Source of the DNA: a virus
Taxonomy: Duplodnaviria > Heunggongvirae > Uroviricota > Caudoviricetes
Reading direction: 5' to 3' (one strand)
DNA length: 43,997 nt
IMG/VR virus record: IMGVR_UViG_2778261068_000003
Location: 1-43,997 of that record
The notes beneath the pieces are model-generated. The model saw nothing but the letters and a program-made list of their open reading frames with translations. It was not told where the DNA came from and ran no database searches. Shown in pieces: positions 261-17,526 of the stretch. The first letter of the stretch is position 1, and the number at the start of each line of letters is the position of its first letter. The position numbers and the translations under genes are program-made.

Positions 261-815
261 TTAAAACCGCATCAACCGCTCCACCAGTTGTTCCTTACGG
301 GCAACTATCCAGCCTTGCTGTTCCAGATAAAACTTAAAACGCTCCAGGGTGCACACCATTGCGTCGGCTGGGACTTTTTCTGTGAACTCAATCTGACCGT
401 GGCTATTGAAATGGATCAGCAACGAGCAACCGGCAACTGATGTGGTTTGTGGCGATGCTGGAGGTTGTTTCTTATTGAAATAACAGTCTTCCAGTTTTTC
501 GAACACTTCCCACGCCTGATCGGTTTCCAGCATTTTGGCGTGGCGGGCTGCTCCGCGTTCTGTCCAGAGGATGAGCGAGCGGGTTTTGGGAGATATTTGT
601 GACTCTCTTAAAGATAGTCGCAAATTTTTTAGCTCCTCACCCACAATTTTGAAAAAGTGCTTTCCCTCAACAAAGCGATCCGAGTTGCGTTTGTGATTTT
701 GCTGAATGCGAATTGCTTCTGTACCGTAAAGCTGCGCCAAAAGTTCAGTGGTAATAACAGGGATCTGGTTATGAGTGATCGGGGAGAGAGTTTTAACAGA
801 GATTTGAGTTGTCAT
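261..815 (-). CDS. ORF6N/KilA-N-like DNA-binding domain protein (phage regulatory or antirepressor-like)
   Basis: N-terminal ...IPVITTELLAQLYGTEAIRIQQNHKRNSDRFVEGKHFFKIVGEELKNLR... resembles the ORF6N domain; GAGGG Shine-Dalgarno 6 nt before ATG at 815. Confidence 0.55.
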   Translation of the reverse strand: MTTQISVKTLSPITHNQIPVITTELLAQLYGTEAIRIQQNHKRNSDRFVEGKHFFKIVGEELKNLRLSLRESQISPKTRSLILWTERGAARHAKMLETDQAWEVFEKLEDCYFNKKQPPASPQTTSVAGCSLLIHFNSHGQIEFTEKVPADAMVCTLERFKFYLEQQGWIVARKEQLVERLMRF

Positions 816-1085
816 AATGACGCCCTCTGGTGGTTTCTAAATAACTCACCACCGACGACGCCAATCGTCTGGTGGTGAACTGTGCAGGGTTGGCGTAACC
901 GGGAAACCAACCGGCGCACCTTTCGGTGCCCCCACACAGCCCACCATAATTCAGATGTGCGTGCGCATACGACAATAAAAAACACGCTCGCGGCGTGTGT
1001 CTGTCGCGGTTTCTATCCGGGACGCCAATCCCGACGCCAGATTTTGCTGGCGTGCGCAGACTATAATCCCGGACGGTTATTTTTG

Positions 1086-2204
1086 TCAAATAACCAACTT
1101 AACCCATTCCTGACCACGGGTGTCGTTATAGCGATCGGTGGTTGCCTGGACTTTATGTCCCAGTAATGTTTTTGTATCGATACCCTGTGCCCGGTACAGC
1201 CGTTCTGACAGGGAGCGTTGTTCATGAAATGTTGGTGGTGTTTTTCCTGCTGGTGGAGTTATTCCTGCCAGATCCCGCGCTTTAGCAAAGTAGTCGCTAA
1301 GGTTATCTTTACTCATTGGTTTTGGTTGTTTCTGGTGCCGACTATGAATCAGGTATGGACTCAATATTCTGTCCCTGCATCCATCAATTACTTCCTTTAG
1401 CGATATCCCAATGGCATCACAGCGTAGTGTAAGCGGTAACGCCAGACGCATTCCGGTTTTTCCCTGGGTGATATGCAAGTGTTCGTTCCATACATCTGAA
1501 AAACGCATGTGGCAAATGTCATCGCGGCGCTGACCTGTAACAATCGCAATAAGCATTGCATTGCGGATAAAATGTTTTTCAGGCGTTGCGTTGTAAATTT
1601 TTTGCCAGTCTTCCAGAGTAAGTCTGGCTCTTGTCACTTTAGGGATCGGTTTACGGGTTGCCTCCGGGGGATTCCATCCGGGAGGAACTTCTCCAGCATG
1701 CTGCGCTTCTTTATATATATCAACCCACAATCCACGATTTACTTTTGCTGTACTGACCATGTCTTTATCCAGCCACTCATCCAGTATTAATGCAAAGTCT
1801 CTTACTTCCAGTTCTTTCAATGGGTGGTTTCCCAGACGGGAAACCAGGAATGCAGCCATTCGCGCTTTTTCTTTGTGAGTTGTAGCTGCAATATCTCCAT
1901 TTTTCAGTCGCGCGTCCTGTATTTTCAGATATCGATCAACCCATGCTTTTAATCTGATGCCCCGACGTTTTGTTGCTGACGGACTTTCATCAATTTTGCG
2001 CATGAAATATTCAGCTTCTGCTGCAGCTATTCGCTGATTGGCTGTGGTGGCGATTTTTTCTGCCTTATTTTTGTCTGTTCCGAGTCCGTGAAATTTTCCG
2101 GTTACAGGATTTTTATACTGGTAGTAAACTCTGCCGGTTCTGCGATCAAATTTTTCGTAAAGACCCGCTACATCAGTGCTGTTTTTTCGTGGCCTCGGTG
2201 ACAT
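1086..2204 (-). CDS. int: lambda-family tyrosine integrase
   Basis: 372 aa; N-terminal arm-binding-like region and C-terminal ...LLGHKVQATTDRYNDTRG... catalytic-tyrosine region; overlaps the 3' end of the xis-like gene as in lambdoid phages. Confidence 0.9.
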   Translation of the reverse strand: MSPRPRKNSTDVAGLYEKFDRRTGRVYYQYKNPVTGKFHGLGTDKNKAEKIATTANQRIAAAEAEYFMRKIDESPSATKRRGIRLKAWVDRYLKIQDARLKNGDIAATTHKEKARMAAFLVSRLGNHPLKELEVRDFALILDEWLDKDMVSTAKVNRGLWVDIYKEAQHAGEVPPGWNPPEATRKPIPKVTRARLTLEDWQKIYNATPEKHFIRNAMLIAIVTGQRRDDICHMRFSDVWNEHLHITQGKTGMRLALPLTLRCDAIGISLKEVIDGCRDRILSPYLIHSRHQKQPKPMSKDNLSDYFAKARDLAGITPPAGKTPPTFHEQRSLSERLYRAQGIDTKTLLGHKVQATTDRYNDTRGQEWVKLVI

Positions 2205-6594: not shown

Positions 6595-7002
6595 TTATTG
6601 ATGTTTGTTACGTTTGCGAGCTTCTAGTAGCTCGGTGAATAGGCGATTAAAATTCTCAACGCGGGCACGGAGTTCGCTGATTTGTGCTTGCTGCTCTGAT
6701 TTTGGAAGTGCGCGATACAATCGCAACATCTCCAACTCATCTTCCGATAAGTCTAAGGCGCTGTTGAGTGCAACTGGTGGATCTGGTGTTTTATCCTCGT
6801 CACCAAACAGTATCCAAGTTGGTGAACATTGCAATACCTCAGCCAGGCGATGCAAATTTTGCCCACGCGGGGCTGTATGGTCGCTTTCCCATAGTGAAAT
6901 TGATGAGCCAGATACGCCAGCAGCTTTGCTTAAATCGTTTTGACTTAAACCAACCTGTTTGCGTCTTTCTCTAATTCGTTGACCTAAAGTTTTCTCGTTC
7001 AT
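6595..7002 (-). CDS. DicA-like HTH (XRE family) prophage repressor
   Basis: ...LGQRIRERRKQVGLSQNDLSKAAGVSGSSISLWE...LQCSPTWILFGDEDK... closely resembles E. coli DicA; start placed at MNEKTL (7002) because the longer ORF start at 7053 would overlap the operator. Confidence 0.85.
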   Translation of the reverse strand: MNEKTLGQRIRERRKQVGLSQNDLSKAAGVSGSSISLWESDHTAPRGQNLHRLAEVLQCSPTWILFGDEDKTPDPPVALNSALDLSEDELEMLRLYRALPKSEQQAQISELRARVENFNRLFTELLEARKRNKHQ

Positions 7003-7024
7003 ATTTAGATATCTTAATAACCCT

Positions 7025-7066
7025 TGACTTGAGATTCCTTGAGTGATTACCATTGAGAAAACTCAA
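7025..7066. promoter_or_regulatory. divergent promoter/operator region (OR-like) between repressor and cro-like genes
   Basis: TTGACT -35-like hexamer and repeated TTGAG half-sites, including TTGAGAAAACTCAA at 7053..7066, just upstream of the GGAGG Shine-Dalgarno of the cro-like gene. Confidence 0.5.
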
Positions 7067-8764: not shown

Positions 8765-9511
8765 GTGAAAAATATTGCGACAGGCGGCGTTCTTGAACGT
8801 ATCCGCAGACTGACCCCGCCACATGTAACCGCTCCATTCAGAACGGTGGCGGAGTGGCGCGAGTGGCAGCTTGCCGAAGGCCAGAAACGTAGCGAGGAGA
8901 TCAACCGCCTGAATCGTCAGTTGCGGGTGGAAAAAATTCTGAATCGCTCAGGCATCCAGCCGTTGCACCGTAAATGCTCGTTTGCGAATTACCAGGTGCA
9001 GAACGACGGCCAGCGATACGCGTTAAGCCAGGCAAAATCCATCGCAGATGAACTGATGACCGGGTGTACAAATTTTGCGTTCAGTGGAAAACCTGGTACC
9101 GGGAAAAACCATCTGGCGGCAGCTATCGGGAACCGACTGCTGAAAGAAGGACAGACAGTGATTGTGGTTACTGTGGCTGATGTCATGAGCGCCCTGCACG
9201 CCAGCTATGACGAAGGACAATCAGGCGAAAAATTTTTGCGGGAACTGTGCGAAGTGGATCTGCTGGTTCTTGATGAAATTGGCATTCAGCGCGAGACGAA
9301 AAATGAGCAGGTGGTGCTGCATCAGATTGTTGATCGCCGGACAGCATCGATGCGCAGCATGGGGATGCTGACAAACCTGAACTATGAGGCCATGAAAACG
9401 TTGCTCGGCGAGCGGATTATGGATCGCATGACCATGAACGGTGGGCGCTGGGTGACGTTTAACTGGGAAAGCTGGCGCCCTAATGTCGTCCAGCCAGGAA
9501 TTACGAAATAA
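8765..9511 (+). CDS. DnaC-like replicative helicase loader (AAA+ ATPase)
   Basis: Co-linear similarity to E. coli DnaC (...NRSGIQPLHRKCSFANYQV...FSGKPGTGKNHLAAAIGN...DLLVLDEIG...MLTNLNYEAM...); GTG start with a G-rich Shine-Dalgarno. Confidence 0.9.
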   Translation: MKNIATGGVLERIRRLTPPHVTAPFRTVAEWREWQLAEGQKRSEEINRLNRQLRVEKILNRSGIQPLHRKCSFANYQVQNDGQRYALSQAKSIADELMTGCTNFAFSGKPGTGKNHLAAAIGNRLLKEGQTVIVVTVADVMSALHASYDEGQSGEKFLRELCEVDLLVLDEIGIQRETKNEQVVLHQIVDRRTASMRSMGMLTNLNYEAMKTLLGERIMDRMTMNGGRWVTFNWESWRPNVVQPGITK

Positions 9512-11207: not shown

Positions 11208-12038
11208 ATGCAAGAAATCAAAGAAAATATCAGACAACAGCTTTACGGGTTTTATATTGCTTATGATTTGTGGCTGAGTAATGGGGTGAAACCCGGCGGG
11301 GTGTTTTCTCAAAGTTATGGTTTATGCGCTAATCTTTTTGATTATCTCACACTAATTGGTGCCCCCAGCGAAGCGGTACTGGAACAATTACACACGGATT
11401 TCAGAAGTGCCGGGCTGAATGAGGTGTTGCCATTTAACGAGAGTAAAGGACATTACTATGAAGAAAAAGAGAACAATAAGTGCCATATGAATCCGGCGCG
11501 GGCGGCGTGGGTCAGGGCGCAGATGGTGCAGGCAGTGCCGGACGGACTGGTTAAGGCCGTACGCTTCTATGAACAGGTAAAGTGTGAGAATCCGCCAGCT
11601 GAAACCGGAGCATGGAAAGACGCTGTTGACTGGGTACTCAAAGAGGCCTGCCGCGCTGCCATGCTTCATAGTGCCGAACCTGTAAGCCAGGCTTTAAGTG
11701 GCGAGAAGATGAAAAAGAAAGATCGCGATGCTGATTTGCGCTGGATTCATGGCGTAATAGTTCAGGCTGCGTGGTTTGTAAAAGCATCACTGGAGCAGAC
11801 CGCGCTATCGGGCACTCCTCCGGTAACTCAGGATGGTTGGATAAGCTGTAGTGAGCGAATGCCAAATGATGGTCAGCACGTAATTATTTTATGTGATGGC
11901 GCATTCGTTCTTTATGCGCAATATCGGGACGGTGAGTTTTTTGATATTGTCCGCAATGGTGAGGAGTTCTTCGAAACACAGAGCCGCAATGTAACCCACT
12001 GGATGCCACTACCAGAACCGCCGGAGATGAATCGATGA
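11208..12038 (+). CDS. hypothetical protein with C-terminal DUF551-like domain
   Basis: C-terminal ...WISCSERMPNDGQHVIILCDG...VTHWMPLPEPP resembles DUF551, common in lambdoid ninR regions. Confidence 0.55.
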   Translation: MQEIKENIRQQLYGFYIAYDLWLSNGVKPGGVFSQSYGLCANLFDYLTLIGAPSEAVLEQLHTDFRSAGLNEVLPFNESKGHYYEEKENNKCHMNPARAAWVRAQMVQAVPDGLVKAVRFYEQVKCENPPAETGAWKDAVDWVLKEACRAAMLHSAEPVSQALSGEKMKKKDRDADLRWIHGVIVQAAWFVKASLEQTALSGTPPVTQDGWISCSERMPNDGQHVIILCDGAFVLYAQYRDGEFFDIVRNGEEFFETQSRNVTHWMPLPEPPEMNR

Positions 12039-12118
12039 CCTGGCCTGAGGCATTCGCAACAGTAGGTATTGCACTGGCGGTGGCGCTGGTGGTGTATTCG
12101 ATTTGCCGCTGGGGATAA
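12035..12118 (+). CDS. putative small hydrophobic peptide (27 aa)
   Basis: MTWPEAFATVGIALAVALVVYSICRWG; ATG overlaps the upstream TGA (ATGA coupling); single predicted transmembrane helix; below the ORF-track length cutoff. Confidence 0.3.
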   Translation: MTWPEAFATVGIALAVALVVYSICRWG

Positions 12119-12306
12119 AAACGATTTGCGGGAAAAGGACAGTTAAGTAAAATCGCTGCGGGTGCTTGAGGCTATCTGTCTCAGGCATGAACACCAACGG
12201 CAGATAGATAAAAGCCCCACCCGACTATAAATCGAAGTGAGGCCCCTATATGCTCGACACATATAGATTGCCTCTTACGGACCGAAAGGTCAAGGAGAAG
12301 CAGGCT

Positions 12307-12462
12307 ATGAAGCAGCAAAAGGCGATGTTAATCGCCCTGATCGTCATCTGTATTACCGTCGTAGTGACGGCACTGGTAACGAGGAAAGATCTCTGCGAGG
12401 TACGAATCCGTACCGGACAGACGGAGGTCGCTGTCTTCACAGCTTACGAATCTGAGGAGTAA
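12307..12462 (+). CDS. hok: Hok/Gef-family type I toxin
   Basis: MKQQKAMLIALIVICITVVVTALVTRKDLCEVRIRTGQTEVAVFTAYESEE matches the Hok family pattern; AAGGAG Shine-Dalgarno; an in-frame upstream extension (12250) is mok-like; stem-loop directly after the stop. Confidence 0.85.
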   Translation: MKQQKAMLIALIVICITVVVTALVTRKDLCEVRIRTGQTEVAVFTAYESEE

Positions 12463-12532
12463 GAGACCAGGCGGGAGATTACTCTCCCGCCTCCTCTGAT
12501 GTGTCAGGCATCCTCAACGCGCCCGCACCTAA

Positions 12533-12553
12533 CCCGCTTCGGCGGGTTTTTTG
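12533..12553 (+). terminator. Rho-independent terminator of the hok transcript
   Basis: CCCGCTTCGGCGGG hairpin followed by TTTTTT. Confidence 0.7.
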
Positions 12554-12734
12554 TTGTTTATTTTTAGTGGGTTTGATCTTTTTGATTGCGTCATCACGTT
12601 TGCCTGTAAAGGCATCGCGGATGTATTGAACAGATAATGAGCCAACATAGAATCAAAAATTCTTAAGTAGCGCGCAGGGAGAAGATGGATGGATCCCGAA
12701 GGGGAAGATCTATTTATCTGGAAGGATTCTGAAG

Positions 12735-12995
12735 ATGAAAATCGAAGAATTGCGTGAAATTTTTAGTGAAGATGGCCTCTATACTGTGTGCGTTGAGAAT
12801 GGCTCTATTGTCAGCCACTGCCGTATTAAATGTTTACAGTTTCAACAAAGGAAGAGTGGGGCTGCGTTAATTTACTTTGTGGATGGGCTTGTGACAGATG
12901 GTTTTATTTTGCGTGAAAATGAATTTGTCACATCATTGCAGTCTCTGAAAGAAGCTGGGCTTAAGGCTGGTTTTTCTGCTTTTGAAGATGAGTGA
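12735..12995 (+). CDS. hypothetical protein (86 aa)
   Basis: ORF with GAAGGA Shine-Dalgarno; no motif recognised. Confidence 0.45.
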   Translation: MKIEELREIFSEDGLYTVCVENGSIVSHCRIKCLQFQQRKSGAALIYFVDGLVTDGFILRENEFVTSLQSLKEAGLKAGFSAFEDE

Positions 12996-14403: not shown

Positions 14404-14763
14404 ATGCGTATAGAATTTGTTTTGCCTTACCCGCCGTCGGTGAACACCTACTGGCGCCGTCGTGGTGGCGTATATTTTGTATCAAAAGCCGGTGAGCGTT
14501 ATCGTCGGGATGTGGCGTTTATTGTTCGCCAGCAGCAACTGAAATTAAACCTGTCCGGTAGATTGGCAATCAGGATTATTGCAGAGCCACCGGATAAGCG
14601 CCGTCGTGATCTGGACAATATTCTGAAAGCGTCGCTGGATGCGCTGACGCATGCCGGACTGCTCATAGACGATGAGCAGTTTGATGAAATTAATATTGTG
14701 CGCGGTCAGCCCGTTTCTGGTGGGCGACTGGGGATAAAAATCACACAGCTGGGGTGTGCATGA
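14404..14763 (+). CDS. rusA: RusA-family Holliday junction resolvase
   Basis: MRIEFVLPYPPSVNTYWRRRGG...DLDNILKASLDALTHAGLLIDDEQ... is typical of RusA. Confidence 0.9.
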   Translation: MRIEFVLPYPPSVNTYWRRRGGVYFVSKAGERYRRDVAFIVRQQQLKLNLSGRLAIRIIAEPPDKRRRDLDNILKASLDALTHAGLLIDDEQFDEINIVRGQPVSGGRLGIKITQLGCA

Positions 14764-15449
14764 ATAACCAGTATTTACAGTTTGTTCGTGAGCGGCTCAT
14801 TATCGCCACCGCCAATTTGAGTGGAGCAACAAAAGGTCAGCTTGAGGCCTGGCAGGAGAATGCCATATTTGATACAGGGCGTTACAGGCGTAAAAAAATC
14901 CGGTACCGCGATGAAGTGACCGGAAAAATGATCACGCGGGATAATCCACCAATCCCGGGGAAACAATCGCAGGCGAAGGGTACGTCAGTTCCTCTGGTAA
15001 GTCCGGTTGAGTTTTCGACATCATCATGGCGGCGGGCAGTTCTGTCTCTTGAAGAACACCAGAAAGTGTGGTTGCTGTGGTGTTACAGTGGCAGCATTTG
15101 CTGGGAATATCAGATCGCGATAACTCAGTGGGCGTGGAATGAATTTAATGCTCAATCCGGTACCAGAAAAATTGCAGGGAAAACGCAGGAACGCCTGAAA
15201 AAATTAATCTGGCTGGCGGCGCAGGCAGTAAAAGCAGAACTTTGGGGTGGGGAAGGTTATGAATACCAGGAGCTGGCATTGCTGGCGGGGGTGACAACCA
15301 AAAACTGGTCCAAAACATTTACTCGTCACTGGGTTGCAATGAAACACATTTTTCACCAGTTGGATAGTGAGGCTTTATTGTTTGTGATGAGAACACGTTC
15401 AGAACAAAAGGTGGCATTTTCAAAGCAAAGTATTGCAAAAGTAGATTAA
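14760..15449 (+). CDS. putative late antiterminator (Q-like)
   Basis: ATG overlaps the rusA stop; position immediately upstream of a promoter-plus-terminator pair and the lysis genes corresponds to lambdoid Q; family assignment is mainly positional. Confidence 0.55.
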   Translation: MNNQYLQFVRERLIIATANLSGATKGQLEAWQENAIFDTGRYRRKKIRYRDEVTGKMITRDNPPIPGKQSQAKGTSVPLVSPVEFSTSSWRRAVLSLEEHQKVWLLWCYSGSICWEYQIAITQWAWNEFNAQSGTRKIAGKTQERLKKLIWLAAQAVKAELWGGEGYEYQELALLAGVTTKNWSKTFTRHWVAMKHIFHQLDSEALLFVMRTRSEQKVAFSKQSIAKVD

Positions 15450-16526: not shown

Positions 16527-17526
16527 ACCCTTTTTTAGATTGATTGTTATGTCTGCGTGAAATACACGCATACACTCAATTTCATTTTTTAACAACACCA
16601 TTCATTGACGCCGTTCCGATCAGGGTTGATATTTATACCTGTTTGATGACGCATGTTGATTACCACCTGTAGTTATTATTGCGATTCAAACGGTGCTGAC
16701 CGTAAGGAAAGCATCCAGAAAAAACGACTGCACACTTTATGGTATGTGCGCAGATTTTGCGTGAAGATTACAGCCACTCTCCTGGGACATCGTCTTCATT
16801 CTGCAACTGTGGCTGGTTGCAGATTACATACCATTTTTTGAGGTGGCACAGTGATGGCGTATTGTCGGTATGTCATGCCGGATGAGATGAAAGCGCAATT
16901 CATTATCACCTGAGGCGATACGTCATCACTCTGCCTCTTTGACTGAATCTGAGGTGAGCCCGCGAGGGGTGGTATCAGGCGTGGTATCACGCATACTGTT
17001 TTTTAGCGGCCAGTATGCCCCGGAATATATCCGGCACCTCGACCTTACTCTCGCGATTGTCTGCTTTTGATATGGTCTGTTTGTATTACCTTTCCGCCAT
17101 TTATATGGCGGTTTTTTTTATGCCGGATATTTACGTCAGTGAATAAAAAAGGGAGCGGGCTATTGGGGAGCCCGCCGGACAAGGTCCATTTATCGGTTCT
17201 GACATTACTGAGCGTGAACGCTGGACTGAAACGCTCAAATATCAGTGGGTCATTAGGAAAGAACTACCTCCCATTGGAGTTCCGGGAGGTGGCTTTTTAA
17301 TATCATGAGAAACTGGCAAAGTAAACATAACTATATGAAAAATATATAGTTTTTAGCTTTTTGCGAACATTTCTGATGTTATCTTCGCCGACTTATTTCA
17401 AAATTACTGTCCGTGATGGTTATCTTTAGAAGATATTTGTTTTGCATATTTTATATTTTGTTGTTTTTTTGCACGACGACAAAGTAACCAAAACTGCCAT
17501 CGGCGGTTTTTTTATATCTGAAAAGA
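16527..17526. repeat. tandem duplicated noncoding module, copy A (~1 kb)
   Basis: Begins AGATTGATTGTTATG, as does copy B at 17527; co-linear with copy B with substitutions and indels; its 3' ~100 bp resembles the pR'/tR' region after Q. Confidence 0.8.
17095..17120 (+). terminator. Rho-independent terminator inside repeat copy A
   Basis: CCGCCATTTATATGGCGG hairpin followed by TTTTTTTT. Confidence 0.6.

What the first reader, a model, noticed from the sequence alone, without database searches (positions are those of the whole stretch)
12035..12553. Hok-family type I toxin locus with an in-frame mok-like extension and an adjacent coupled hydrophobic mini-ORF
The 51-aa Hok-like toxin (12307..12462) is preceded by an in-frame upstream reading frame from 12250, whereas the classical mok overlaps hok out of frame. 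It is followed immediately by a perfect 8-bp stem-loop (12471..12490) and a canonical terminator. An antisense Sok-like RNA would be expected opposite 12230..12300 but cannot be confirmed from sequence alone. Just upstream, a 27-aa single-helix peptide ORF (12035..12118) is translationally coupled to the DUF551-like gene by an ATGA overlap and could be a second small membrane peptide.
Basis: partly seen in the sequence, partly recalled or inferred. Interest (0 to 1): 0.45.

Follow-up and report, generated by a model that had tools for sequence, protein, structure and literature searches.

The report
Ordinary prophage hok/sok toxin-antitoxin locus
This is a standard, already described Hok/Sok/Mok toxin-antitoxin cassette in a lambda-like prophage (the intact form of E. 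coli hokD/hokW); the 27-codon gene beside it is a separate, conserved but uncharacterised phage membrane-peptide gene, not part of the toxin system.

Summary
[quoted passage not shown] Hok matches Pfam HOK_GEF (E 9e-24) and is 94% identical to K-12 HokD. The mRNA leader matches Rfam RF01794 at 105 bits. The gene order hok - rem-like - DUF968 copies the K-12 Qin prophage.

The in-frame 19-codon mok extension is not unusual. It is annotated that way for mokW/hokW of phage 933W and mokC/hokC of K-12, and 124 of 146 related loci have it. Close relatives also carry mok in the other two frames through 1-nt indels, so the frame itself is not constrained.

Sok can be placed by homology on the minus strand at 12258 to about 12204: a 9-nt free 5' tail, a hairpin and a U-run. 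Its promoter is TTGACC-17-CAATCT, with a weak -10.

The 27-aa ORF looks like a real gene. It is intact in most relatives, has pN/pS 0.26 in frame and over 1 out of frame, and starts with ATGA behind unrelated upstream genes. DNA similar to it occurs in 28% of complete E. coli genomes. It occurs without hok and hok occurs without it, so it is phage backbone lying just before a slot where cassettes are swapped. Its function is unknown and it is rarely annotated.

Low interest overall.

The parts
11208..12038 (+). DUF551-domain gene (276 aa), last large gene before the cassette. It is phage backbone, not part of the TA.
   Evidence: Pfam PF04448, E 3.4e-21; ORF listed.
12035..12118 (+). 27-aa single-helix peptide gene (MTWPEAFATVGIALAVALVVYSICRWG). 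It has an SD-like GGAG at 12023-12026 and an ATGA start/stop overlap with the upstream gene. It is a separate conserved phage microprotein gene.
   Evidence: About 133 of 142 homologues keep a full-length ORF (129 of 27 aa, 2 of 25 aa with in-frame deletions, 2 with C-terminal extensions). pN/pS is 0.26 in frame, against 1.24 and 1.65 out of frame. Distant pairs give syn 12/21 vs nonsyn 7/57, Fisher p 1e-4. ATGA overlap follows at least two unrelated upstream gene ends. Similar DNA occurs in 1539 of 5426 E. coli genomes.
12126..12153 (+). Putative hok promoter: -35 TTGCGG (12126-12131), 16-nt spacer, -10 TAAAAT (12148-12153). The inferred start is near 12160.
   Evidence: Read from the sequence. 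It aligns with the same region of 933W (TAGAAT) and K-12 hokC (TATAAT). The Rfam model starts at 12160. It was not picked up by the strict consensus scan.
12160..12553 (+). Full-length hok mRNA (mok-hok bicistron with structured 5' and 3' UTRs).
   Evidence: Rfam RF01794 matches 12160-12309 at 105 bits. MFE -162.9 kcal/mol, z -7.1, with the 5' end paired to the 3' end.
12160..12218 (+). 5' leader hairpin (tac/ucb-type element) at the very 5' end of the hok mRNA.
   Evidence: Inverted repeat I3, 12161-12178 / 12201-12218. It is the first helix of the Rfam model alignment.
12250..12462 (+). mok reading frame, 70 aa. It is in frame with hok (19 extra N-terminal codons) and has an SD-like GAGG at 12239-12242.
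   Evidence: Same geometry as annotated mokW and mokC. Alignment.
12307..12462 (+). hok toxin gene, 51 aa, with SD AAGGAG at 12292-12297.
   Evidence: PF01848, E 9.3e-24. PHROG 251 'MokW-like host killing', E 4.6e-32. 94% identical to K-12 HokD.
12204..12258 (-). Sok antisense RNA, inferred by homology. The 5' end lies at 12258, opposite mok codons 1-3. It has a 9-nt single-stranded tail, a hairpin and a UUUU tail.
   Evidence: Mapped from annotated sokW and sokC. Fold -21.4 kcal/mol, z -4.25. The same tail-hairpin-U-run architecture appears in all but two of 19 distinct relatives, in two length classes.
12265..12293 (-). Putative Sok promoter: -35 TTGACC (reverse complement of 12288-12293), 17-nt spacer, -10 CAATCT (reverse complement of 12265-12270).
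   Evidence: It is positionally homologous to the sokW promoter TTGCCT-17-TAACCT. The window's variant is shared by 12 of 146 loci, all with intact hok and mok. It was not detected by the consensus scan.
12470..12491 (+). Perfect 9-bp stem-loop just after the hok stop codon, a conserved 3' UTR hairpin of hok mRNAs.
   Evidence: (I1). It is conserved in 933W, hokD and hokC.
12500..12527 (+). fbi-type 3' element that pairs with the 5' end of the mRNA (12160-12183) to hold the full-length mRNA closed.
   Evidence: Inverted repeats I2 and I8. The pairing is present in the MFE and centroid folds. The sequence is conserved in hokD and hokW.
12531..12554 (+). Intrinsic terminator of the hok mRNA.
   Evidence: Terminator scan: 7-bp stem, 5 G-C pairs, loop 4, T-run.

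Best explanation
The region is a complete hok/sok/mok type I toxin-antitoxin cassette of the prophage hokD/hokW type. It is inserted as a moron in the nin region of a lambda-like prophage, between the replication genes and the Q antiterminator.

Inferred mechanism, from the R1 and hokW paradigms:
1. A weak promoter (-10 at 12148-12153) makes a roughly 394-nt mRNA.
2. The 5' end of that mRNA pairs with the 3' fbi element, so neither ribosomes nor Sok can bind.
3. Slow 3' trimming opens the mRNA.
4. Ribosomes then start at mok (12250) and read through the hok ribosome-binding site. In this subfamily that happens in frame, so Mok is simply Hok with 19 extra N-terminal residues. This reading allows hok (12307) to be translated.
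5. The short-lived Sok RNA (12258 to about 12204, minus strand) pairs through its free 9-nt 5' tail with the mok start, blocks mok translation and triggers RNase III cleavage.
6. When Sok synthesis stops or is outpaced (prophage induction, loss of the element, or host shut-off by another phage), Hok is made, inserts in the inner membrane and depolarises or kills the cell.

The in-frame mok is the usual state of this subfamily and has no special meaning.

The 27-aa ORF upstream is an independent, conserved phage gene for a single-pass membrane peptide (probably N-out, C-in). It is translated by coupling to whatever gene precedes it, as the last cistron before a slot where cassettes are swapped. 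It is not a component of the TA system.

Shown here: family membership, the anatomy of the locus, conservation, and the independence of the two genes. Inferred: expression, toxicity, and any role in the phage life cycle.
For: Identity of the locus:
- Pfam HOK_GEF, E 9e-24. PHROG 251 'MokW-like host killing', E 5e-32.
- Rfam RF01794, 105 bits against a gathering score of 59, over 12160-12309.
- 85-94% DNA identity to loci annotated hokD in E. coli, and to hokW/mokW/sokW in phage 933W.
- Hok is 94% identical to K-12 HokD and 86% to MokC/HokC.

Context:
- The downstream gene is 74% identical to Rem of Qin, followed by DUF968 (YdfU-like), RusA and Q. This is the same order as K-12 Qin.
- K-12 hokD has lost everything upstream of its SD to relBE, whereas the window keeps it.

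mok:
- In-frame mok is annotated in 933W and K-12.
- 124 of 146 loci have the 57-nt in-frame form. 18 have a 56-nt form in which a 19-aa Mok ends in an ATGA overlap with the hok start. 4 have the 58-nt out-of-frame form, as in R1.

Sok and mRNA structure:
- Sok was mapped from annotated sokW and sokC. It folds as tail + hairpin + U-run with z -4.25, as do nearly all 19 distinct relatives.
- 5'-3' pairing is seen; the terminator.

Function of the closest characterised homologue:
- HokW is toxic. sokW from its own promoter neutralises it, with help from RNase III and Hfq. The locus speeds lysis and doubles phage release after mitomycin C (PMC8621323).

Mini-ORF:
-.
Against: - The strict sigma-70 consensus scan finds no minus-strand promoter here.
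- The inferred Sok -10 hexamer is CAATCT, only 2 of 6 matches to TATAAT (A at position 2 and T at position 6). It has lost the first T present in the validated sokW promoter (TAACCT), although the -35 is better (TTGACC) and the spacer is 17 nt.
- Chromosomal hok loci of E. coli have been reported unable to mediate post-segregational killing (preprint 10.1101/2025.08.07.668861).
- Nothing here shows transcription, processing or toxicity.
- For the mini-ORF there is no expression evidence and no match in Pfam, PHROGs or NCBIfam. It was not found in two small-ORF catalogues.
- The codon-position test on closely related alleles alone is only marginal (chi-square p 0.056).
Confidence: 0.9

Rival explanations
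1. The locus is a structurally intact but functionally silent hok relic. Either Sok is no longer transcribed because the -10 box lost its first T, or hok mRNA is not activated, as reported for several chromosomal hok loci. It would then have no role in the prophage.
For: The Sok -10 is CAATCT, and the consensus scan finds nothing on the minus strand. Chromosomal hokA, hokB and hokC did not mediate killing in earlier work (quoted). K-12 hokD is a truncated relic.
Against: - If Sok alone were dead, an intact hok with its own promoter should be lethal, or would quickly acquire mutations.
- Instead, all 12 loci with the CAATCT variant keep a 51-aa Hok, the mok ATG and the promoter geometry.
- The hok ORF, both SDs, the 5'-3' pairing and the terminator are all intact.
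- The 1-nt deletion restores a 17-nt spacer next to a near-consensus -35.
- The close homologue hokW/sokW is active (PMC8621323).
Confidence: 0.15
2. The 27-codon ORF is not translated. Its conservation would reflect a DNA-level role: either a conserved boundary or linker sequence used for homologous exchange of modules between lambdoid phages, or upstream sequence of the hok promoter.
For: - It sits exactly at a mosaic joint. Homology to loci carrying other cassettes stops at 12119, and for many records it starts at about 12023-12033.
- It is almost never annotated.
- There is no family hit.
- The codon-position chi-square is only p 0.056.
Against: - pN/pS is 0.26 in frame, against 1.24 and 1.65 in the other frames.
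- Distant homologues differ mostly at synonymous sites (12/21 syn vs 7/57 nonsyn, p 1e-4), and even change the stop codon while keeping 27 codons.
- The few indels seen in otherwise full-length copies are in frame (the 25-aa variants).
- An SD and an ATGA overlap are kept behind unrelated upstream genes.
- It is conserved where no hok promoter follows.
Confidence: 0.15
3. The 27-aa peptide is a functional partner of Hok. It would be either a second membrane toxin or a protein-level modulator or immunity factor of Hok, so that the two form one two-peptide system.
For: They are adjacent: 125 nt separates the ORF start from the hok mRNA start in 68 of 107 co-occurring loci. Both are small single-helix hydrophobic peptides.
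Against: - 82 of 189 hok loci with enough flank have no mini-ORF upstream.
- 30 of 127 mini-ORFs have no hok within 3 kb downstream.
- The mini-ORF also precedes an opposite-strand type II TA (ArgO145), xis/int (VT1-Sakai) or p92/DUF968 directly.
- The spacing to hok varies from 119 to 1521 nt.
- No antisense promoter, terminator or known RNA family lies over the mini-ORF.
Confidence: 0.05

Closest known systems
hokW / mokW / sokW of Shiga-toxin phage 933W and Sakai prophage Sp5
   Same: - 51-aa Hok.
- 70-aa in-frame Mok starting 57 nt upstream.
- Sok starting 9 nt inside mok on the opposite strand.
- The same 5' leader, 3' stem-loop and fbi sequence.
- The same 27-aa ORF directly upstream, overlapping the preceding gene by ATGA.
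- Experimentally shown to be a type I TA that helps lysis and phage release (PMC8621323).
   Different: - About 85% DNA identity.
- The window's Sok hairpin is 21 nt shorter: 53-55 nt against 71-75 nt.
- Two compensating 1-nt indels change Mok residues 8-14 and turn the Sok promoter from TTGCCT-17-TAACCT into TTGACC-17-CAATCT.
- 933W carries the cassette at the integrase-proximal end of the early-left region, whereas the window carries it in the nin region.
hokD (relF) of the E. coli K-12 Qin cryptic prophage
   Same: - 94% identical Hok.
- Same downstream neighbours: rem (74% identity) and DUF968/ydfU.
- Same 3' UTR, including the fbi sequence.
- PGAP names the relatives of this locus HokD.
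   Different: K-12 hokD lacks the promoter, 5' leader, mok and sok, which were replaced by relBE upstream of the hok SD. The window has the complete regulatory region.
hokC (gef) / mokC / sokC of E. coli K-12
   Same: In-frame Mok (69 aa) containing Hok (50 aa). sokC starts 9 nt inside mokC. The Mok leader peptide is very similar (MLNTCRVPLTDRKVKEKRA against MLDTYRLPLTDRKVKEKQA).
   Different: It is a chromosomal, non-prophage location. In K-12 the 3' end is disrupted by IS186. The Sok hairpin sequence is different.
hok / sok / mok (parB) of plasmid R1
   Same: The same overall design: structured mRNA with 5'-3' fold-back, a mok leader frame covering the hok SD, an antisense Sok over the mok start, and a Hok/Gef-family toxin.
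   Different: - The R1 mok ATG lies 58 nt upstream of the hok ATG, so it is out of frame (deduced from the mutation numbering quoted).
- HokW is only 44% identical to R1 Hok, and the window's Hok is a close HokW relative.
- R1 hok/sok is a plasmid maintenance locus rather than a prophage moron.
Bacterial and phage single-pass membrane microproteins in general (for the 27-aa ORF)
   Same: Size, a single hydrophobic helix, a charged residue on each side of the helix, and the habit of being missed by annotation.
   Different: There is no detectable sequence relationship to any curated family. The best hit is KdpF at E 0.053, below cut-off; the best PHROG hit has E above 0.1. Function is unknown.

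Membership tests
[quoted passage not shown] | Toxin is a roughly 50-aa Hok/Gef-family membrane peptide. | tested here: met
   PF01848, E 9.3e-24, 83 bits against a cut-off of 22. PHROG 251, E 4.6e-32. 94% identity to HokD. The NCBIfam Hok models match (E 1e-13) but below their strict equivalog/subfamily cut-offs.
[quoted passage not shown] | Conserved structured hok mRNA leader (5' hairpin, Sok target hairpin, mok and hok ribosome-binding-site hairpins). | tested here: met
   Rfam RF01794, full-length match 1-157 at 12160-12309, 105 bits against a gathering score of 59.
[quoted passage not shown] | Leader reading frame (mok) with its own SD that starts upstream of hok and is translated across the hok ribosome-binding site. 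| tested here: met
   ATG at 12250, preceded by GAGG, open through the hok start. It aligns with annotated mokW and mokC. The frame relative to hok varies among relatives.
[quoted passage not shown] | Cis-encoded antisense RNA (Sok) over the mok start, with a free 5' tail and a terminator hairpin. | tested here: met
   Homology mapping gives 12258-12204 on the minus strand. The predicted fold is a 9-nt tail + hairpin + UUUU, z -4.25. The same architecture is seen in relatives. This covers sequence and structure only; the transcript was not observed.
[quoted passage not shown] | Active constitutive Sok promoter inside the mok/hok overlap region. | tested here: inconclusive
   TTGACC-17-CAATCT lies at the homologous position. 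The -35 matches 5 of 6, the -10 only 2 of 6. It was not found by the consensus scan. The variant recurs in 12 loci, all with intact hok.
[quoted passage not shown] | Long-range pairing of the mRNA 5' end with a 3' fbi element, followed by a terminator. | tested here: met
   Inverted repeats 12166-12183/12500-12517 and 12157-12165/12519-12527. The pairing is present in the MFE and centroid folds. Terminator at 12531-12548.
[quoted passage not shown] | Hok expression is toxic, and is repressed by Sok through RNase III-dependent decay after 3' processing of the mRNA. | not testable with these tools
   Shown only for the homologue hokW/sokW (PMC8621323) and for R1 (PMC9841398).
Type I toxin (as proposed for the 27-aa ORF) | Small hydrophobic peptide whose mRNA has a long structured leader and a dedicated antisense RNA gene. 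| tested here: not met
   The ORF starts by ATGA overlap with the upstream gene and has an SD 8 nt upstream, so it has no leader of its own. No minus-strand promoter or terminator lies over it, and no Rfam family matches it.
Protein-coding gene (the 27-aa ORF) | Reading frame kept open, and an excess of synonymous over non-synonymous change across homologues. | tested here: met
   About 133 of 142 copies keep a full-length ORF, and the indels in the 25-aa variants are in frame. pN/pS is 0.26 in frame against 1.24 and 1.65 out of frame. Distant pairs give p 1e-4 and 6e-5. Caveat: the sequences are related and were partly retrieved with a pattern that fixes the first 21 nt.

The most novel reading that the evidence does not exclude
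The 27-codon ORF (12035..12118) encodes a genuine, widespread single-pass membrane microprotein of Escherichia/Shigella lambdoid phages, consensus M[TSN]WPEAF..VG..[ML]AVA.VVYSICRWG, which RefSeq almost never annotates. Similar DNA is present in about 28% of complete E. coli genomes, with up to 7 copies per genome. It is always the last, translationally coupled cistron before a slot where accessory cassettes are exchanged (hok/sok, an opposite-strand type II TA, or xis/int). It would act on a host inner-membrane target during lytic development. Its function is entirely open.
Probability: 0.65. Interest if true: 0.35.

Novelty: already known. Interest (0 to 1): 0.15.

Why it matters
The Hok part matters little. 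It confirms that this prophage carries a complete hokD/hokW-type type I toxin-antitoxin cassette. This kind of cassette is annotated in thousands of E. coli genomes and has been tested experimentally in phage Sp5.

Two by-products may be of modest use:
- Within one closely related prophage subfamily, mok occurs in all three frames relative to hok: a 57-nt in-frame form, a 56-nt form ending in an ATGA overlap with the hok start, and a 58-nt out-of-frame form as in R1. This supports the long-held view that only the act of translating mok across the hok ribosome-binding site matters, not the Mok product.
- The neighbouring 27-codon ORF is a conserved, mostly unannotated phage microprotein gene. 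It marks a cassette-exchange point and could be added to small-protein catalogues and tested.

Tried and rejected
Searching with a natural 45-aa N-extended form (P0018) gave only 3 short hits and no long fusion proteins.
- The exact-sequence look-up found the peptide occasionally deposited as 'hypothetical' or 'prophage protein'. However, it was placed in 90% clusters whose DUF551 representatives do not contain it. I treated this as a clustering artefact, not as evidence for a DUF551-peptide fusion.
- Pfam, PHROGs and NCBIfam gave no significant family for the peptide.
- A full-text search for 'MTWPEAF', and searches of the supplements of two small-ORF papers for 'WPEAF', found nothing.
- The genome contigs pattern scan returned only 6 species representatives: E. 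coli, Shigella flexneri, Escherichia sp., one chance match in a MAG, and two tiny contigs in Xanthomonas and Acinetobacter assemblies that are probably contamination. It says little beyond 'Escherichia/Shigella phages'.
- The consensus promoter scan did not find the hok or Sok promoters, so both were placed by homology instead.
- I considered that the mini-ORF is part of the hok cassette. I rejected this on co-occurrence and on the exact homology breakpoint at 12119.
- I considered that the in-frame mok is a new variant. I rejected this on the 933W and K-12 annotations.
- I did not identify the source organism. The best E. coli matches to the region are 92-94% identical.
Full report
**Observation.**
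- A 51-aa ORF lies at 12307..12462.
- An in-frame ATG at 12250 gives a 70-aa ORF that ends at the same TAA.
- An intrinsic terminator follows, with stem 12531-12548 and a T-run.
- A 27-aa ORF lies at 12035..12118. Its ATG overlaps the TGA of the 276-aa DUF551 gene 11208..12038 in the sequence ATGA.

**What the main feature is.**
- The 51-aa product matches Pfam HOK_GEF (E 9.3e-24) and PHROG 251 'MokW-like host killing' (E 4.6e-32).
- The 150 nt upstream of and into hok (12160-12309, + strand) match Rfam RF01794 end to end, at 105 bits against a gathering score of 59. That family is named 'sok', but the model lies on the hok mRNA strand and ends at the hok AUG. The hit therefore identifies the hok mRNA leader.
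- The 601-bp region has homologues in 4938 of 5426 complete E. coli genomes. The best are 92-94% identical and are annotated 'type I toxin-antitoxin system toxin HokD'.
- It also has homologues in 84 phage records, including 933W, where mokW, hokW and the SokW antisense RNA are all annotated.

**Genomic context.** The window is a lambda-like prophage. It carries:
- a lambda-type integrase (1086-2204, minus strand);
- an HTH repressor (6595-7053, minus strand);
- a DnaC/IstB-like replication protein (8765-9511);
- DUF1627, DUF4406 and DUF551 genes;
- then the locus under study;
- then a Rem-like gene, a 92-aa gene, DUF968, RusA (14404-14763) and antiterminator Q (14754-15449).

The order hok - rem - DUF968 - Q is that of the K-12 Qin prophage. 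The 86-aa downstream product is 74% identical to Rem, and Hok is 94% identical to HokD. Alignment shows that K-12 hokD has lost everything upstream of its Shine-Dalgarno sequence to relBE, whereas the window keeps the promoter, leader, mok and sok. The window therefore holds the intact form of the hokD locus.

**The in-frame mok.**
In PMC9841398, Mok codon 16 ends at nt 163, codon 18 ends at nt 169, and G176 is the last base of the hok start codon. This places the R1 mok ATG 58 nt upstream of the hok ATG, in another frame.
- The in-frame arrangement is nevertheless not new. mokW (213 nt) and hokW (156 nt) of 933W share one stop codon. So do mokC (16751-16960) and hokC (16751-16903) of K-12.
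- Among 146 related loci (145 IMG/VR loci plus the window), 124 have the 57-nt in-frame form. Another 18 have a 56-nt form in which a 19-aa Mok ends in an ATGA overlap with the hok start. The remaining 4 have the 58-nt form with a 68-aa out-of-frame Mok, as in R1.
- The differences are single-base indels inside the Sok promoter region. Two of them compensate each other between the window and 933W, and they rewrite Mok residues 8-14.
- The frame is therefore free to vary, which fits the established view that translation of mok matters rather than its product. These loci are not independent samples, so the counts describe the collection, not evolutionary events.

**Sok.**
- Annotated sokW (71 nt) and sokC (59 nt) both begin 9 nt inside mok on the opposite strand. 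Transferred through the alignment, they place the window's Sok at 12258 down to 12204-12210.
- That RNA is predicted to have a 9-nt unpaired 5' tail complementary to mok codons 1-3, then a long hairpin and UUUU (-21.4 kcal/mol, z -4.25).
- All but two of 19 distinct relatives give the same architecture, in two length classes. The window belongs to the short class of 53-55 nt, which lacks 21 nt of the hairpin.
- The promoter at the homologous position reads TTGACC-17-CAATCT (reverse complement of 12288-12293 and of 12265-12270). In 933W-type loci it reads TTGCCT-17-TAACCT, and in a third class TTGACC-18-TAATCT.
- The window's -10 keeps only the A at position 2 and the T at position 6, and the consensus scan did not call it. 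This is the one real doubt about activity.
- Against that doubt, the variant recurs in 12 loci, all with an intact 51-aa Hok and an intact mok.

**Other RNA elements.**
- The 5' end (12160-12183) pairs with 12500-12527, an fbi-type fold-back. This pairing closes the minimum-energy and centroid folds of the 394-nt mRNA (z -7.1).
- The 5' hairpin 12161-12178/12201-12218 is the first helix of the Rfam model.
- A plausible hok promoter (TTGCGG-16-TAAAAT, 12126-12153) sits 6-7 nt before the model's first base. It aligns with TAGAAT in 933W and TATAAT in hokC.

**How it most likely works.** By analogy with R1 and hokW, the sequence of events is as follows.
1. The full-length mRNA is closed by the 5'-3' pairing.
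2. 3' trimming opens it.
3. mok translation exposes the hok start.
4. Sok blocks mok and triggers RNase III cleavage.
5. Sok decays faster than the mRNA, so any stop in transcription releases Hok.

For hokW/sokW it was shown that HokW is toxic and that sokW from its own promoter neutralises it, with help from RNase III and Hfq. After mitomycin C, sokW falls and HokW rises in a RecA-dependent way, which advances lysis and doubles phage release (PMC8621323).

In the window, hok points the same way as the early-right operon, and no terminator is predicted between the DUF551 gene and hok. Read-through after induction could therefore both add hok transcript and interfere with the convergent Sok promoter. 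This is my inference and was not tested. Prophage stabilisation and exclusion of other phages are the other established roles of the family, and they cannot be ranked from sequence alone.

**The 27-aa ORF.** It behaves as a gene of its own.
- Of 142 homologous copies in IMG/VR loci, about 133 keep a full-length ORF: 129 of 27 aa, two of 25 aa with in-frame deletions, and two with C-terminal extensions. All begin with ATGA behind at least two unrelated upstream gene ends (GGAGGTGAATCAATGA and GGATATTTTACGATGA).
- pN/pS is 0.26 in the ORF frame, against 1.24 and 1.65 in the other two.
- Distant homologues keep 27 codons with mainly synonymous change. In VT1-Sakai the peptide is MNWPEAFTAVGVAIAVAFILYSLFRWG; in phage TH18 it is MTWPEAFTTVGVVMAVAFAVYSVCRWG, with a TGA stop. 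The window against TH18 gives 12 of 21 synonymous against 7 of 57 non-synonymous sites changed, Fisher p 1e-4.
- Similar DNA occurs in 1539 of 5426 complete E. coli genomes, with up to 7 copies.

It is not tied to hok.
- 82 of 189 hok loci lack it, and 30 of 127 copies have no hok within 3 kb downstream. The spacing to hok ranges from 119 to 1521 nt.
- It is followed by xis/int in VT1-Sakai, by an opposite-strand type II TA in ArgO145, or directly by the 92-aa/DUF968 genes.
- Homology between the window and loci without hok ends at 12119, one base after its stop codon, and resumes at 12661 or 13041.

The ORF is therefore the last backbone cistron before a slot where cassettes are exchanged.

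It is essentially unannotated in RefSeq and in the phage records I inspected. It is called only when mutation lengthens it, or occasionally as 'hypothetical' or 'prophage protein' in GenBank. It has no Pfam, PHROG or NCBIfam family, and it was not found in the papers or supplements I searched.

The peptide has an acidic N-terminus (E5), a hydrophobic core from about A8 to I23, and R25 near the C-terminus. This suggests an N-out, C-in single-pass membrane peptide (topology is my inference). It has none of the regulatory features of a type I toxin. What it does is unknown.

**Verdict.** The main feature is already known. The only loose end of some interest is the unannotated microprotein family.

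Noticed in passing
window 868-1066 (minus strand) and 261-815 (minus strand): Rfam finds a C4 antisense RNA (868-951, 72.5 bits), isrK (977-1053, 78.9 bits) and the c4 a1/b1 target (1014-1066). They sit next to an ORF6N-domain (antirepressor-like) gene and just beside the integrase. This looks like a P1/P7 immI-type or Gifsy isrK-type antirepressor control module inside a lambdoid prophage.
   Followed up: partly
window 12445-12447 (Hok codon 47, TAC) in the context 12444-12450 TTACGAA: The Tyr codon sits in a UACG / anticodon-loop-like motif. A 2026 preprint states that hokC, hokD and hokE mRNAs undergo TadA A-to-I editing that recodes this Tyr to Cys, as in hokB. The window's hok keeps the motif, so it may be edited too.
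   Followed up: no
window 12119 (left joint) and about 12577-12661 or 13041 (right joint); loci L165, L206, L152, L187, L133, L234: The position right after the mini-ORF stop is a cassette-exchange point. It holds hok/sok here and an opposite-strand type II toxin-antitoxin pair in ArgO145-like prophages. In the latter, a short stretch after the terminator (…TACGAATCCGCCAGTAAGAGAGGGGGCGG…) resembles the 3' end of hok, as if it were a relic of a replaced hok.
   Followed up: partly
IMG/VR loci L003-L229, region homologous to window 12250-12309: Within this one prophage hok subfamily, mok occurs in all three frames relative to hok. The forms are 57 nt in frame; 56 nt, giving a 19-aa Mok that ends in an ATGA overlap with the hok start; and 58 nt out of frame, as in R1. 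They arise by 1-nt indels that also alter the Sok -35 and -10 boxes.
   Followed up: yes
Sok 5' tails in relatives (homologous to window 12250-12258): The 9-nt single-stranded 5' tail of Sok differs between lineages (GUUCAGCAU, GUAGAGCAU, GACGAGCAU, GUCUAGCAU, GCAAAGCAU; window GUCGAGCAU), while the hairpin is conserved. This could keep the several hok/sok copies in one genome from cross-reacting.
   Followed up: no
window 12626-12653 (+ strand): The only sigma-70-like consensus hit in the region (TTGAAC-16-TAGAAT) lies after the hok terminator and about 80 nt before the rem-like gene (12735-12995). It may be a promoter for that gene.
   Followed up: no
protein clusters of the 27-aa peptide (P0001-P0034): In the 90%-identity protein collection, the 27-aa peptide is filed in clusters whose representatives are 121- or 185-aa DUF551 proteins that do not contain its sequence. 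This probably arises through partial gene calls such as GGESMTWPEAF…. It hides the peptide from representative-based searches.
   Followed up: partly
L238 (Xanthomonas pisi contig, 431 bp) and L241 (Acinetobacter idrijaensis contig, 369 bp): Tiny contigs in non-enterobacterial assemblies carry the E. coli-phage mini-ORF; L238 also has the start of the hok promoter region. They look like contamination by E. coli prophage DNA.
   Followed up: no
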